Assembly: GCF_057098645.1 (NCBI RefSeq)
Contig: NZ_CM169472.1
Length of the DNA: 64,000 bases
Strand: one strand, 5' to 3'
The notes under the pieces: generated by a model
The model's database searches: none
What the model saw: only the letters and a program-made list of their open reading frames with translations
What the model was told of the DNA's origin: nothing
In this document: one piece after another, positions 27,727-32,748 of the stretch
Position numbering within the stretch: the stretch's first letter is position 1
Layout: every line of letters begins with the position of its first letter
Made by a program: the position numbers and the translations under genes

Positions 27727-28782
27727 ATGCGTAAAATCATTCATGTGGATATGGACTGCTTTTTCGCAGCGGTGGAGATGCGCGACAATCCCGCCCTGCG
27801 CGATATCCCTATTGCTATTGGCGGTAGCCGCGAACGTCGGGGGGTGATCAGCACCGCCAATTATCCCGCGCGTAAATTTGGCGTACGTAGCGCTATGCCG
27901 ACAGGGATGGCGCTCAAATTATGCCCACATCTCACCTTGCTTCCGGGGCGCTTTGACGCCTACAAAGAAGCCTCAAATCATATCCGTGAAATCTTCTCGC
28001 GCTACACCTCGCGTATTGAACCGTTGTCACTGGATGAGGCTTATCTCGATGTCACCGATAGCGTCCATTGCCACGGTTCTGCGACCCTCATCGCCCAGGA
28101 AATCCGCCAGACGATCTTCAACGAGCTGCAACTGACGGCATCTGCGGGCGTGGCACCAGTAAAGTTTCTCGCCAAAATCGCCTCCGACATGAATAAACCC
28201 AACGGCCAGTTTGTGATTACGCCGGCAGAAGTTCCGGCATTTTTACAAACCTTACCACTGGCAAAAATCCCCGGCGTCGGCAAAGTCTCGGCGGCAAAAC
28301 TGGAAGCGATGGGGCTGCGGACCTGCGGTGATGTACAAAAGTGTGATCTGGTGATACTGCTTAAACGCTTTGGCAAATTTGGCCGCATTTTGTGGGAGCG
28401 TAGTCAGGGGATTGACGAACGCGATGTTAACAGCGAACGGTTGCGAAAATCCGTCGGCGTGGAACGCACGATGGCGGAAGATATTCATCACTGGTCTGAA
28501 TGTGAGGCGATTATCGAGCGGCTGTATCCGGAACTTGAACGCCGTCTGGCAAAGGTGAAACCTGATTTACTGATTGCTCGCCAGGGGGTGAAATTAAAGT
28601 TCGACGATTTTCAGCAAACCACCCAGGAGCACGTCTGGCCGCGGCTGAATAAAGCTGATCTAATCGCCACCGCGCGTAAAACCTGGGATGAACGCCGCGG
28701 CGGGCGCGGTGTGCGACTGGTGGGGCTGCATGTGACGTTGCTGGATCCGCAAATGGAAAGACAACTGGTGCTGGGATTATGA
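27727..28782 (+). CDS. dinB: DNA polymerase IV (Y-family translesion polymerase)
   Basis: 351-aa ORF starting [33 protein letters not shown]. Confidence 0.95.
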
Positions 28783-29231
28783 ATAACATACAAATAAGAA
28801 ACTATCAGCCTGGCGATTTTCAGCAACTATGCGCTATTTTCATTAGAGCGGTTACGATGACCGCCAGTCAGCATTATTCACCACAACAAATTGCCGCCTG
28901 GGCGCAGATTGACGAATCTCGCTGGAAGGAGAAACTCGCGAAATCACAAGTGCGGGTTGCAGTCATTAATGCACAACCGGTTGGTTTTATTTCCCGCATT
29001 GAACATTATATCGATATGTTATTTGTTGACCCTGAATACACCCGCCGTGGGGTTGCCAGCGCTTTGTTAAAACCTTTGATTAAGTCTGAATCCGAACTTA
29101 CGGTGGACGCAAGCATAACCGCAAAACCCTTTTTTGAACGTTATGGTTTTCAGACAGTTAAGCAGCAGCGCGTTGAATGCCGGGGCGCGTGGTTTATTAA
29201 TTTTTATATGCGTTATAAACCGCAACATTAA
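28779..29231 (+). CDS. yafP: GNAT-family N-acetyltransferase
   Basis: 150-aa ORF; start overlaps the dinB stop (ATGA). Confidence 0.85.
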
Positions 29232-29536
29232 ATCCAGCTTGCAATGAAAATAACGCCCGCCTAATATGTGCGCGTTTTCTTATTCCACAAACTGCAAGGA
29301 GGTAAATCATGACAAATCCTTTATCAATGACTCTTTGCAGACCTTTCCAGGATTAATTCTTTTTTTCTTGCCCTGGATTCGTCTGCCATTTCCTGATTTT
29401 TATATTTATATACTCTAAATAATTCGAGTTGCAGGAAGGCGACAAGCGAGTGAATCGCCAGGAGCTTACATAAGTAAGTGACTGGGGTGAACGAACGCAG
29501 TCGCAGTTCATGCAACTTGAAGTATGACGAGTATAA

Positions 29537-30067
29537 ATGGAATGGTACATGGGCAAATATATTCGTCCCTTATCCGATGCGGTATTTACCATCGCATCTG
29601 ATGACCTGTGGATCGAGAGTTTAGCGATCCAACAATTACACACCACGGCAAATTTACCCAACATGCAGCGCGTAGTGGGGATGCCAGATTTACACCCCGG
29701 ACGCGGCTACCCGATTGGCGCAGCGTTCTTCTCCGCAGGCCGTTTTTACCCAGCACTGGTCGGCAATGATATCGGCTGTGGCATGGCGCTATGGCAAACA
29801 GATATTCTCGCTCGCAAATACAACGCCGATAAGTTTGAAAAGCGATTATCAGCTTTGGATGACGTTGCTGAAGAAAGCTGGCTGGAGGAAAACCTGCCGT
29901 CAGCATTTGCACAGCATCCGTGGCGCAGCTCGCTTGGCTCTATCGGTGGCGGCAATCATTTCGCTGAACTGCAACAAGTTGATCAAATCATCAACGCTGA
30001 ACTGTTTGCACTGGCAGGTCTGGATGCGCAGCATCTGCAACTGCTGGTTCATAGCGGCTCGAGGGGG
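29537..30067 (+). pseudogene. RtcB-family RNA ligase (PrfH-coupled), 5' fragment interrupted by an IS element
   Basis: 187-aa ORF with RtcB-like motifs (GMPDLHPGRGYPIGAAF, GGGNHFAELQ, HSGSRG); reading frame broken by the insertion. Confidence 0.8.
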
Positions 30068-30094
30068 GGTGCCCCTATTAAGTTGTCAAGCATG

Positions 30095-31291
30095 TTATGA
30101 CGCCTGCGGGGTATAAAAAGTCCCGTCGCGCATCATGGCGAACAGAACGTCGCAGCGTCGTCTCGCCAGGGCGATAAGCGCCTGATTGTGTCGTTTTCCC
30201 TGACTCATTTTGCGGGTGTAGTAAGCCCTGGAGAGCGGATCCCTGAGCGCGGCGAAGGCCGACAGGAACAACGCCCGTTTGAGAGCTTTATTACCCCGTC
30301 GCGAGGGATGCTCACCGCGTATTGACGAGCCGGATCGCCGAGTTACCGGCGCAAGGCCAGCATAAGCAGCGAGATGTGCGGCAGAGGCGAAGGCGCGGCA
30401 GGCGACCTCGGTGAGGAGTCTGGCTGCGGTCCTGACACCGACTCCGGGCATACTGGTCAGGACCGGGTAAAGAGGGTGAGCAAGAACTCGCTGTTCTACC
30501 TCAAGCACCACCTCGTCTCTTTGCTTACGCAGCGTGATGAGCTGGAGTGCCAGACGTGGCAGTACTACGGCAGCGGCATTCGTGCCGGGAACGACGACGG
30601 TTTGTTCGGCCAGTGCCTGAGCTATGTCTGCTGCAAGGCGTTTACCCAGACGAGGCGCAAGTTTGCAGAGCTGGGCTGCCAGCTTCTTCTCACCCAGCGA
30701 AGCGAGTTTTTCTGGTGAGGGATATCGCTGGAGAAGATCGAGTACCGCCGGGTGATCAAGTCTCGGACCGAGAACGCGCTCCAGTGCCGGATGTATCTGG
30801 GTCAGAAGGCCGCGGATACGGTTGCTGGCCTGCGTTGTCTGTGCGGCAAGATCATCATCGAAGCCGCAGAGCATGGAGAGTTCGGCGATTTGCTCGTCAG
30901 CCAGTTTCAGCGTGCGTAGCGCGTGAGGCAGGGTACGGGCAGCTTCGGCAATGATGGCAGCGTCACGAGCATCAGTTTTAGCTTCACCGGCGTGTAAGTC
31001 GGCTATGCGGCGCATGGCCAGTCCAGGGAGGTATCCGACAAGGACTCCTTCTGAGCGGGCAACGGCGACAGGTAACGCACCGATGGTAGCTGGCTGATCA
31101 ACAACCAGCAGTATCTGACCATGTTGTTTCAGGTCAGATATTAGCGACCTGAGTTTGTTTTCGTCGTTGGGTAATGCTTTATCGAACAGGCGTTTACCTG
31201 AACGATTAATGGCTACAGCGTGATGCGTATCTTTACCGACATCAACGCCGATAAAGACCTGGACGGATTCGTAATCGCTGGATTCGGTCAT
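30095..31291 (-). CDS. IS110-family DEDD transposase/recombinase
   Basis: N-terminal IGVDVGKDTHHAV (RuvC-like DEDD) and C-terminal MPGVGVRTAARLL...AYAGLAPVTRRSGSS...GNKALKRAL motifs. Confidence 0.88.
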   Translation of the reverse strand: MTESSDYESVQVFIGVDVGKDTHHAVAINRSGKRLFDKALPNDENKLRSLISDLKQHGQILLVVDQPATIGALPVAVARSEGVLVGYLPGLAMRRIADLHAGEAKTDARDAAIIAEAARTLPHALRTLKLADEQIAELSMLCGFDDDLAAQTTQASNRIRGLLTQIHPALERVLGPRLDHPAVLDLLQRYPSPEKLASLGEKKLAAQLCKLAPRLGKRLAADIAQALAEQTVVVPGTNAAAVVLPRLALQLITLRKQRDEVVLEVEQRVLAHPLYPVLTSMPGVGVRTAARLLTEVACRAFASAAHLAAYAGLAPVTRRSGSSIRGEHPSRRGNKALKRALFLSAFAALRDPLSRAYYTRKMSQGKRHNQALIALARRRCDVLFAMMRDGTFYTPQAS

Positions 31292-31517
31292 TCTGTCTCC
31301 CTTGTATATGGGTTAACCAGATAACCACGGGGAGCAGGTACCGGCATCCACGTTACAGACGGTCCCGGCAAAAGTGCCTGACCTGACCCCTATTAGCGGT
31401 TACCAGCGCCCCACCAGACCCGGTGACATCACCCCCCGGATCATGGACGACTGGGGGCAGTAATCATGCCGGGTCTGGCTGGCTAACACCCCATTATAAG
31501 GGGTACGAATAAAGTAA
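31292..31517 (-). ncRNA. candidate IS110-type bridge (guide) RNA in the element's 5' non-coding arm
   Basis: ORF-free, about 225 nt; perfect 10-bp inverted repeat ccagacccgg/ccgggtctgg (31414-31423 and 31469-31478); 8- and 9-nt exact matches to the target flank and the element terminus. Confidence 0.4.
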
Positions 31518-32137
31518 CGGGGCAGTCTATTTTACAGCGGCATATTGCCTCGTTTTCGCATCATGGTTTGCCTGAAGGCAGTGACGATGCGCTACGGTAC
31601 ATTGCGGAACATGACGATGCGCTGGCATTTGCGCGTATTAATAGCCAGATGATCGCTTTGCGCATAATGCAACAGGTTAAGGCCACGGGAAGTCCGGTTC
31701 TGGATGTGGCGCATAACTTTGTTAGCGCGTGTCAAATCGGCGATCAACAGGGCTGGTTGCATCGTAAAGGTGCCACGCCGGATGACAACGGTCTGGTGAT
31801 TATTCCCGGTTCACGCGGTGATTACTCCTGGCTTGTACAGCCTGTTGCGAACGAAAAAACGCTCCACTCGCTGGCGCATGGGGCAGGGCGTAAATGGGGG
31901 CGCACCGAGTGTAAAGGGCGTCTGGCAGCGAAATACACGGCGACGCAACTCTCGCGTACTGAACTTGGCAGTCGGGTAATTTGTCGCGATAAACAACTCA
32001 TCTTTGAAGAAGCGCCACAAGCCTATAAATCGGCTGAAAGCGTGGTGCAATGTCTGGTGCAGGCCGGATTAATTATTCCTGTCGCGCGGCTGCGTCCGGT
32101 GCTAACGCTCAAAAACAGTGGAGGGAAAAAAGGATGA
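31518..32137 (+). pseudogene. RtcB-family RNA ligase (PrfH-coupled), 3' fragment
   Basis: Frame resumes ...GQSILQRHIASFSHHGLPEGSDDALRY...; ends 3 bp after the prfH start. Confidence 0.8.
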
Positions 32138-32748
32138 TCTTGCTACAACTCTCCTCTGCTCAGGGGCCGGAAGAATGTTGTCTCGCAGTGAAAAAGGCGC
32201 TGGACAGGCTGATTAAAGAAGCTGCTCGACAAGACGTCGTGGTAACAGTGCTGGAAACAGAAACAGGTCGTTACTCTGACACGCTGCGTTCGGCGCTGAT
32301 TTCTCTGGATGGCGACAACGCATGGGCGTTAAGCGAAAGTTGGTGCGGCACTATTCAGTGGATTTGTCCGAGTCCGTATCGGCCTCATCATGGGCGCAAA
32401 AACTGGTTTCTGGGCATTGGGCGTTTTACCGCTGATGAGCAGGAGCAATCCGATGCGATCCGGTATGAGACGCTGCGTTCGTCGGGGCCGGGTGGTCAAC
32501 ATGTCAATAAAACCGACTCGGCGGTACGCGCCACGCATTTGGCATCCGGTATTAGCGTGAAGGTTCAGTCAGAACGCAGTCAGCATGCTAACAAGCGGCT
32601 GGCACGATTGCTGATTGCCTGGAAGCTGGAGCAACAGCAACAGGAAAATAGCGCAGTGCGGAAATCGCAGCGGCGAATGTTCCATCACCAGATTGAACGT
32701 GGCAACCCGCGACGAACGTTCACAGGGATGGCTTTTATCGAAGGATAA
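32134..32748 (+). CDS. prfH: peptide chain release factor H homolog (GGQ motif), apparently full length
   Basis: 204-aa product [15 protein letters not shown]... with [16 protein letters not shown]; gaggg RBS; overlaps rtcB 3' end. Confidence 0.85.

What the first reader, a model, noticed from the sequence alone, without database searches (positions are those of the whole stretch)
30068..31517. IS110-family element inserted in the PrfH-coupled rtcB gene
A 398-aa DEDD recombinase (IGVDVGKDTHHAV at the N-terminus, GVGVRTAARLL...GNKALKRAL at the C-terminus) sits inside the RtcB-like reading frame, which stops at HSGSRG and resumes at GQSILQRHIASFSHHG. The element has no terminal inverted repeats and its coding sequence ends about 27 bp from one junction, as expected for the IS110 subgroup. 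Exact junctions and the core dinucleotide cannot be fixed by eye because of a G7 run at 30063-30069.
Basis: partly seen in the sequence, partly recalled or inferred. Interest (0 to 1): 0.7.

Follow-up and report, generated by a model that had tools for sequence, protein, structure and literature searches.

The report
ISEc20 insertion splitting the rtcB2 gene
A known RNA-guided mobile element, ISEc20 of the IS110 family, has inserted into a run of G bases inside the ribosome-repair gene rtcB2 and split it; the same insertion is already annotated in 34 public E. coli genomes, so the finding is correct but ordinary.

Summary
A 1449-bp element body (window 30070-31518, minus strand) splits an otherwise intact rtcB. 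Removing it restores a 379-aa RtcB of the PrfH-paired subfamily; prfH follows and is intact.

The 398-aa ORF has both IS110 Pfam domains and passes NCBI's IS110 RNA-guided transposase model. RefSeq names it ISEc20. It is about 99.4% identical to ISSfl4. The same insertion occurs in 34 of 5426 complete E. coli genomes, mainly O145:H28, on two rtcB alleles.

New detail:
- There are no terminal inverted repeats.
- The left end is 227 nt and the right end 25 nt.
- The left end folds into a bridge-RNA-like structure whose loops match the target (ACUGCCCCC against rtcB ACTGCCCCC) and the element's own joined ends.
- Every copy examined, and its relatives in Salmonella and Ralstonia, lies in a C run read on the element's sense strand, which fixes the orientation antisense to rtcB.
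- Two empty-site comparisons suggest a net gain of 1450 bp, meaning one shared C, with donor core A-C and target core C-C. Homopolymer length variation prevents certainty.

The acidic tetrad is D-D-D-D, not D-E-D-D. The likely effect is loss of colicin E3 ribosome repair. Novelty: already known.

The parts
29549..30069 (+). rtcB2 5' fragment. It encodes the N-terminal part of the protein up to ...LLVHSGSRG and ends in the G run.
   Evidence: RefSeq: RNA ligase RtcB family protein, missing C-terminus. (reconstruction).
30063..30069 (.). G7 run: the left part, in window orientation, of the homopolymer target. On the element's sense strand it is the C7 run that follows the right end.
30070..31518 (-). 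ISEc20 body, 1449 bp. Read on the minus strand it runs GTTACTTTATTCG...CTTAATAGGGGCA. One flanking C (a G in the window) probably also belongs to the 1450-bp unit.
   Evidence: 99.6-99.9% identical to copies annotated ISEc20. (same 1449 bp at 5 loci). (empty sites).
30070..30094 (-). Right end, 25 nt and non-coding. It contains TTGACA at 30084-30089, a candidate -35 box of a promoter completed only in the circular form. It ends in TAATAGGGGC-A, the left donor sequence.
   Evidence: TTGAC(A/G)-N17-TACT(T/A)T is also present in the Ralstonia relative.
30095..31291 (-). 398-aa IS110-family recombinase with D17, D65, D107, D110 and S320. It carries a private A262V change, at window base 30507, relative to all other copies compared.
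31292..31518 (-). Left end, 227 nt and non-coding. It carries the predicted bridge RNA, with the ribosome-binding site GGGAGA at 31296-31301.
31488..31504 (-). Predicted 5' stem-loop of the bridge RNA (ACCCCUUAUAAUGGGGU).
31414..31478 (-). Predicted target-binding loop. A 10-bp basal stem CCAGACCCGG/CCGGGUCUGG encloses the left target guide ACUGCCCCC (31453-31461), a small hairpin (31440-31451) and the right target guide CCGGGGGG (31432-31439) followed by UGA.
   Evidence: (compensatory changes in the stem). (guide matches to flanks).
31343..31406 (-). Predicted donor-binding loop. It has a basal stem, the left donor guide UAAUAGGGGU (31386-31395), a distal hairpin (31362-31382) and the right donor guide GUAACGU (31350-31356) followed by GG.
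31519..31522 (.). G4 run: the right part, in window orientation, of the homopolymer target. On the element's sense strand it is the C4 run that precedes the left end.
31519..32137 (+). rtcB2 3' fragment, (G)GQSILQRHIASFSHHG... to the stop codon. It overlaps the start of prfH.
32134..32748 (+). prfH, 204 aa, intact.
   Evidence: (TIGR03072, 327.5 bits, cut-off 166.65).

Best explanation
This is a full-length copy of the known insertion sequence ISEc20 (IS110 family, IS110 subgroup; near-identical to ISSfl4). It sits in the G11 homopolymer tract that encodes the Gly residues after the HSGSRG motif of rtcB2, the RNA ligase of the rtcB2-prfH ribosome-repair operon.

Inferred mechanism, by analogy with IS621:
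1. The element excises as a circle.
2. Joining the right and left ends creates a sigma-70 promoter (TTGACA-N17-TACTTT).
3. That promoter transcribes a bridge RNA of about 170 nt from the left end.
4. One internal loop of the RNA pairs with the target, a C run on the element's sense strand. The 5' guide ACUGCCCCC pairs with the bottom strand and the 3' guide CCGGGGGG with the top strand.
5. The other loop pairs with the element's own junction, ...TAATAGGGGC-AC-GTTAC....
6. The recombinase (Asp tetrad plus Ser320) exchanges strands at a 2-nt core whose second base is C.

Because the guides read a specific strand, the element always enters with its sense strand on the C-rich strand. That is why it lies antisense to rtcB.

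Shown here: element identity, domains and catalytic residues, boundaries to within the homopolymer, target type, the complementarities, the conserved RNA fold and the gene disruption. Inferred: RNA expression, the junction promoter, the exact core, and the phenotype. The expected phenotype is loss of RtcB2-dependent protection against colicin E3, since prfH alone does not protect (PMC9223846).
For: - Identity: 99.9% match to RefSeq loci annotated 'IS110-like element ISEc20 family transposase' flanked by two RtcB pseudogene halves. The LE-rtcB junction is present in 34 of 5426 genomes.
- Protein: NF033542 at 238.6 bits, above the 140-bit cut-off. PF01548 and PF02371 present. Catalytic residues align with IS621.
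- Gene disruption: removing 30070-31518 restores a 379-aa RtcB that scores 614 bits on TIGR03073, the PrfH-linked RtcB model. prfH scores 327.5 bits on TIGR03072.
- Target type: five ISEc20 loci, plus relatives in Salmonella, Ralstonia and E. coli, all have C4-5 before GTTAC and C5-7 after GGGGCA.
- RNA fold: free energy -98.3 kcal/mol, z = -3.0. In 7 relatives 91% of cells are paired against at most 43% when partners are slid, and 4 pairs show compensatory changes.
- Guide matches:
  - ACUGCCCCC matches rtcB ACTGCCCCC 9/9 in strains 2014C-3061 and OkiPb01680.
  - UAAUAGGGG matches the right end 9/9.
  - GUAACGU is the exact complement of the junction ACGTTAC.
  - Shuffle frequencies are 0.0034, 0.0025 and 0.03.
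- Guide-flank co-variation: relatives with left guides ACUU and AAUU sit next to ACTA and AACT.
- Literature: Durrant et al. list ISEc20;ISSfl4 as IS110 group with the bridge RNA in the left end. The loop architecture and handshake rules come from PMC11208160 and PMC11208158.
Against: - No RNA or transposition data exist for this element here, and Rfam 15 has no matching family.
- The candidate junction promoter has a weak -10 box (3 of 6).
- The core is not settled. A C-C core fits the bases after the right target guide (UG pairing with CA). An A-C donor core fits the right donor guide (GU) and the 1450-bp net gain.
- In the window the flanking runs are 4 and 7. The guide predicts 5 on the left, so a one-base slip or an assembly error must be assumed.
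- The window copy carries a private A262V change of unknown effect.
- Covariation rests on only 7 related sequences.
Confidence: 0.9

Rival explanations
1. The element is a fixed, no longer mobile relic. It is a vertically inherited pseudogene marker of the O145:H28-related lineage, and the guide-like complementarities in the left end no longer act.
For: 25 of the 34 carriers share one rtcB allele and near-identical junctions, consistent with clonal inheritance. The window copy has a private A262V substitution. No sigma-70-like promoter is detected in the integrated state.
Against: The ORF is intact in all 10 copies compared. Copies differ by at most 5 bases across chromosomes, plasmids and prophages. 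Genomes hold up to 9 copies. The insertion is found on two rtcB alleles that differ by about 3%. A missing promoter in the integrated state is the expected IS110 behaviour (PMC11208160).
Confidence: 0.15
2. The element belongs to the IS1111 subgroup rather than the IS110 subgroup, with its guide RNA at the 3' end.
For: None beyond family-level similarity. Both subgroups share the same two Pfam domains.
Against: The right end is only 25 nt and the left end 227 nt. No subterminal inverted repeats were found. The guide-like segments are all in the left end. Durrant et al. classify ISEc20;ISSfl4 as 'LE, IS110'.
Confidence: 0.01
3. The rtcB tract is not a specifically recognised site. ISEc20 simply enters any long C/G run, and the 4-nt extension of the match (ACTG) is coincidence.
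For: Other ISEc20 sites match only the C-run part of the guide: CGCA, TGAT, ATAG and GAAG precede the run. A 4-nt match has a chance of 1/256 per site, or about 2% over 6 sites, which is not overwhelming. The right target guide's terminal CC is not matched by rtcB.
Against: The 9/9 match has a shuffle frequency of 0.0034. Relatives with altered guides sit beside correspondingly altered flanks. The insertion occurs on two rtcB alleles.
Confidence: 0.4

Closest known systems
ISEc20 / ISSfl4 (ISfinder names; IS110 family, IS110 group)
   Same: The nucleotide sequence is 99.6-99.9% identical to copies RefSeq annotates as ISEc20, and 99.2-99.4% identical to Shigella plasmid copies annotated ISSfl4. 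The 398-aa recombinase is the same, and the split-rtcB context is the same as in O145:H28 genomes.
   Different: The only difference is a private A262V substitution. The flanking G-run lengths are 7 and 4, against 6/4, 7/5 and 7/4 in other carriers.
IS621 and its bridge RNA (Durrant et al. 2024, PMC11208160; Hiraizumi et al. 2024, PMC11208158)
   Same: The domain order and catalytic residue positions are the same, and the left end is long while the right end is short. The predicted RNA also has a 5' stem-loop, a target-binding loop and then a donor-binding loop. The 5' guide of each loop reads like the top strand and the 3' guide is complementary to it. A -35 box lies in the right end.
   Different: - Only the C-terminal domain aligns significantly (1e-14; N-terminal domain about 25% identity).
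- The recombinase is 398 aa against 326 aa.
- The second acidic residue is Asp, not Glu.
- The target is a C/G homopolymer, not a REP element.
- Because of that target, the two target guides are complementary to each other.
- The core is x-C (C-C or A-C), not C-T.
- None of this has been tested experimentally for ISEc20.
RtcB2-PrfH ribosome repair module (PMC9223846, PMC9304027) and its truncated K-12 form
   Same: The operon lies in the same chromosomal place (dinB-yafP-rtcB-prfH-pepD-gpt). As in K-12, the module is inactivated.
   Different: Here inactivation is by a clean insertion into an otherwise intact gene, not by truncation, and prfH remains intact.

Membership tests
IS110 family | N-terminal RuvC-like DEDD domain (Pfam PF01548) with four acidic catalytic residues | tested here: met
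   PF01548 covers residues 14-168 over the full model length, E = 1.4e-48. D17, D65, D107 and D110 align with IS621 D11, E60, D102 and D105. The second residue is Asp, as also in the Ralstonia homologue and in the IS110/ISEc20 cluster sequence in Durrant's supplement.
IS110 family | C-terminal Tnp domain (Pfam PF02371) with a conserved catalytic serine | tested here: met
   PF02371 covers residues 277-358, E = 3.7e-21. S320-G321 align with IS621 S241-G242.
IS110 family | Passes NCBI's curated model for IS110 RNA-guided transposases | tested here: met
   NF033542 scores 238.6 bits against a cut-off of 140 and covers profile positions 1-342 of 343.
IS110 family | No terminal inverted repeats | tested here: met
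   None of the 18 inverted pairs found joins the two termini.
IS110 family | Sequence-specific insertion at a short core, without a conventional target duplication | tested here: inconclusive
   All sites lie in C runs. The net gain is 1450 bp at two sites, which implies one shared C. Run lengths vary between assemblies, so the core (C-C or A-C/C-C) is not fixed.
IS110 subgroup (as opposed to IS1111) | Left end much longer than right end, bridge RNA in the left end, no long subterminal inverted repeats | tested here: met
   The left end is 227 nt and the right end 25 nt. Guide-like segments and the conserved fold lie in the left end. Durrant's supplement lists ISEc20;ISSfl4 as 'LE, IS110'.
Bridge-RNA-guided recombinase system | A non-coding RNA with two internal loops, one complementary to the target and one to the right-end/left-end junction, on staggered strands | tested here: met
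   Tested in silico only. The left and right target guides match the C-run target, and the left and right donor guides match TAATAGGGGC and ACGTTAC. The stems are supported by 4 compensatory pairs.
Bridge-RNA-guided recombinase system | The RNA is expressed from a promoter rebuilt on the circular form and is needed for recombination | not testable with these tools
   Only a candidate was found: TTGACA-N17-TACTTT across the junction, conserved as TTGACG-N17-TACTAT in Ralstonia. No promoter is found in the integrated state.
ISEc20 (named element) | At least 95% nucleotide identity to the ISfinder reference | not testable with these tools
   ISfinder is not available here. Indirect support: 99.6-99.9% identity to copies RefSeq names ISEc20.
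RtcB2-PrfH module | RtcB of the PrfH-linked subfamily immediately upstream of prfH and overlapping it | tested here: met
   The reconstructed 379-aa protein scores 614 bits on TIGR03073 (cut-off 271.8) and 635 bits on NF007153. prfH scores 327.5 bits on TIGR03072. The rtcB stop overlaps the prfH start.

The most novel reading that the evidence does not exclude
The left target guide of the ISEc20 bridge RNA (ACUGCCCCC) is tuned to the rtcB2 homopolymer tract (ACTG followed by a C run on the element's sense strand). On this reading the ribosome-repair operon is a preferred, repeatedly hit and potentially reversible RNA-guided docking site. More generally, the clade related to the ISEc20 group, which includes the Salmonella and Ralstonia relatives, would specialise in long, hypermutable C/G runs. 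Insertion and scarless excision would then add a second on/off layer to a tract that already varies in length between strains.
Probability: 0.2. Interest if true: 0.45.

Novelty: already known. Interest (0 to 1): 0.15.

Why it matters
For annotation, it means rtcB2 in this strain is a pseudogene and the RtcB2-PrfH defence against colicin E3-type ribotoxins is probably off. rtcB2 is the component that confers protection; prfH alone does not (PMC9223846).

For mobile-element biology, it is a tidy natural example of how a bridge RNA dictates both the site and the orientation of an IS110-family insertion. It also shows a target class, long C/G homopolymers, that differs from the REP targets of IS621. 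With such a target the two target guides are complementary to each other.

None of this changes current understanding. The element, its family, its mechanism class and this very insertion are already in public annotation.

Tried and rejected
1. Rfam 15 search of 29500-32200 at E <= 1 found no family. This probably means no bridge-RNA model matches this clade. I did not take it as evidence against an RNA.
2. I tried to fix the core by comparing empty and occupied sites. The rtcB lineage closest to the window (C325) has GGGCGGGG instead of a pure run. The prophage site had empty alleles of C5, C7 and C9. These were unusable, because the runs vary too much. Only the Nissle-island site and the second rtcB allele gave like-for-like comparisons.
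3. Idea: the C in C325 (GGGCGGGG) and the T in PEC408 (GGGGGGTGGGG) are excision footprints, because they coincide with the terminal bases of the element body. I largely dropped this after finding a third interrupted allele (OkiPb01679, G8-A-G3) that does not fit. PEC408 can also be explained by a single G-to-T change.
4. The 87%-identical E. coli relative L013 was no help for donor-guide covariation. It is a decayed pseudogene with a divergent right end.
5. The weak NCBIfam hit to the TIGR-Tas endonuclease (42.6 bits, cut-off 100) reflects the shared C-terminal domain, not membership.
6. A simple promoter scan of the integrated copy found nothing.

Full report
**Observation**

The window at 29.5-32.8 kb reads dinB (27727-28782), yafP (28779-29231), an rtcB reading frame that breaks off at ...LLVHSGSRG in a G7 run (30063-69), a 398-aa ORF on the minus strand (30095-31291), a G4 run (31519-22), the rest of rtcB (GQSILQRHIASFSHHG...), prfH (32134-32748) and pepD.

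**Insertion and empty site**

Uninterrupted rtcB-prfH loci exist in about 2675 of 5426 complete E. coli genomes. Strain C325 has flanks 99.94% identical to the window over 3.5 kb and lacks the segment. Strains H14 and PEC408 also lack it.

Deleting 30070-31518 from the window gives a 379-aa protein. It scores 614 bits on TIGR03073, the RtcB subfamily linked to PrfH, and 635 bits on NF007153. prfH scores 327.5 bits on TIGR03072. So the gene is otherwise intact and the break is a simple insertion.

**Identity of the element**

The ORF has PF01548 (residues 14-168, 1.4e-48) and PF02371 (residues 277-358, 3.7e-21). It passes NF033542, 'IS110 family RNA-guided transposase', at 238.6 bits against a cut-off of 140.

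Against the solved IS621 recombinase, D17, D65, D107, D110 and S320-G321 fall on D11, E60, D102, D105 and S241-G242 (residue roles from PMC11208158). The second acidic residue is Asp. It is also Asp in the Ralstonia homologue and in the cluster sequence that Durrant et al. give for IS110, ISEc20 and ISSfl4.

RefSeq annotates the identical insertion as 'IS110-like element ISEc20 family transposase' between two RtcB pseudogene halves. Shigella plasmid copies 99.2-99.4% identical are annotated ISSfl4.

The LE-rtcB junction is present in 34 genomes:
- 25 carry the window's rtcB allele. These are O145:H28 strains plus a few others.
- 9 carry a second allele about 3% different. These are 2014C-3061, 13E0780, 13E0725, B1_2 and the OkiPb bovine isolates.

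**Boundaries**

The same 1449 bp occurs at the rtcB site and at three other complete loci, with at most 5 base differences. A 59-nt left-end remnant marks a further site (L007). On the element's sense strand the 1449 bp run GTTACTTTATTCG...CTTAATAGGGGCA. In the window this is 30070-31518.

Every copy, and the relatives in Salmonella (92% identical), Ralstonia (72%) and E. coli (83-87%), has C4-5 before GTTAC and C5-7 after GGGGCA. The target is therefore a long C run read on the sense strand. This explains why the element is antisense to rtcB, whose coding strand carries the G run. That run is the only G or C run of 7 or more in the 64-kb window.

No terminal inverted repeats exist. The right end is 25 nt and the left end 227 nt.

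**Core**

Two like-for-like comparisons are available:
- The Nissle-island copy has flanks of C5 and C6, and the same-allele empty site has C10.
- The rtcB copy on the second allele has G7 and G5, and the nearest empty allele (H14) has G11.

Both give a net gain of 1450 bp, meaning one shared C. This fits a donor junction ...GGGGC-AC-GTTAC... and a target core C-C. Only the second core base would then be common, which recalls IS621, where the second core base is nearly invariant and the first is not.

The alternative is a C-C core in both partners, giving a 1451-bp unit. It is not excluded, because run lengths differ between assemblies:
- 7/4 in the window and in Z1323HEC0422.
- 6/4 in O145:H28 strain RM9872.
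- 7/5 in 2014C-3061 and the OkiPb isolates.
- 7/4 in B1_2.

Such differences can arise by slippage or by homopolymer sequencing error. With tools it can be fixed only to within one base.

**Bridge RNA (inferred)**

The left end folds well: -98.3 kcal/mol, z = -3.0. The layout is the one described for IS621: a 5' stem-loop, then two stem/internal-loop/hairpin modules.

On an alignment of seven relatives the proposed 34 pairs are 91% paired, against 24-43% when partners are slid. Four pairs show compensatory changes, for example A-U to G-C in the first basal stem and G-C to A-U in the second hairpin. Seven sequences is a small sample.

In the first module:
- The 5' side carries ACUGCCCCC. This equals the rtcB tract ACTGCCCCC on the sense strand, 9 of 9 in the second-allele carriers and 8 contiguous in the window.
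- The 3' side carries CCGGGGGG, complementary to the C run.

In the second module:
- The 5' side carries UAAUAGGGGU, matching the right end TAATAGGGGC with a terminal G-U pair. The Salmonella and Ralstonia relatives have C at that position.
- The 3' side carries GUAACGU, the exact complement of ACGTTAC across the junction. It is followed by GG, which could 'shake hands' with the CC to the left of the target core.

In 20,000 mononucleotide shuffles, matches of these lengths occur at frequencies of 0.0034, 0.0025 and 0.03. The two donor matches occur together at 5e-5.

Relatives whose left target guide reads ACUU or AAUU lie next to ACTA-C5 and AACT-C4. This is a small covariation signal.

A peculiarity follows from the homopolymer target: the two target guides are complementary to each other, and the minimum-energy fold pairs them.

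Durrant et al. already list ISEc20;ISSfl4 as IS110 group with a predicted bridge RNA in the left end. Rfam 15 has no matching family.

**Promoter (inferred)**

The integrated copy shows no sigma-70-like site. Joining the right and left ends gives TTGACA-N17-TACTTT. The Ralstonia relative has TTGACG-N17-TACTAT. This fits the junction promoter known for IS110 elements, but the -10 box is weak.

**Consequence (inferred)**

The RtcB2-PrfH module repairs ribosomes cut by colicin E3. rtcB2 is the protective component and prfH alone does not protect (PMC9223846; PMC9304027). This strain should therefore have lost that protection, as K-12 has through truncation.

**Comparison and verdict**

The element works like IS621 and is a member of the IS110 family, IS110 subgroup. 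All defining features that can be tested in silico are met. Expression and function of the RNA are untested.

It differs from IS621 in four ways: size (398 against 326 aa), an Asp at the second catalytic position, a homopolymer rather than REP target, and an x-C rather than C-T core.

The element, its family and this exact insertion are already in public annotation. The finding is correct and well described, but ordinary.

Noticed in passing
window 30063-30069 and 31519-31522; loci L001, L002, L021, L022, L027: The G tract of rtcB2, which encodes the Gly residues after HSGSRG, is hypervariable among E. coli. The alleles seen are G11 (commonest, in frame), GGGCGGGG (C325), GGGGGGTGGGG (PEC408), G8-A-G3 (OkiPb01679, annotated frameshifted) and a run of about 60 G (Z1323PEC0008, frameshifted). 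Several records are one base longer than normal. The tract may behave as a contingency (phase-variable) tract, or it may partly reflect homopolymer assembly error.
   Followed up: partly
L001 (C325) and L021 (PEC408) rtcB tract: The interrupting C in C325 and the interrupting T in PEC408 coincide with the terminal bases of the ISEc20 body at the two junctions. C325 has flanks 99.94% identical to the window. They could be excision footprints. A third interrupted allele (G8-A-G3) does not fit, and simple point mutation is the more economical explanation.
   Followed up: partly
L007 1501-1559 (strain EC8) and hits H123-H130: The first 59-61 nt of the ISEc20 left end, preceded by CCCC, occur as a solo remnant beside a short ORF annotated as the Rz spanin in many E. 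coli prophages. The remnant is cut off by an IS3-family element.
   Followed up: partly
L026 (pECOS88) 401-745 and hits H291-H322: A 74%-identical remnant of a related IS110 left end and recombinase start lies next to the omptin protease gene on many ColV/IncFIB plasmids. Its target-binding loop is degraded.
   Followed up: no
window 27727-29231: dinB is followed directly by yafP. The yafN-yafO toxin-antitoxin pair seen between them in PEC408 (and in K-12, from my own knowledge) is absent in this lineage, as it is in C325 and H14.
   Followed up: no
window 30507: The window's ISEc20 copy has a private base change that makes the recombinase A262V. All nine other copies compared, including the same insertion in other strains, have Ala.
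   Followed up: partly
hit H71, NZ_CP007136.1 1139215-1140691: One ISEc20 copy in O145:H28 strain RM12581 spans 1477 bp in two BLAST pieces, about 31 bp longer than the query. This suggests a small internal insertion or duplication.
   Followed up: no
L008 (strain 11899A_LBHALD), near cysB: One ISEc20 copy lies with an IS1 transposase pseudogene immediately after its right end, in a genome with 9 places matching ISEc20, the highest count seen. Whether IS1 offers a C-run target was not checked.
   Followed up: no
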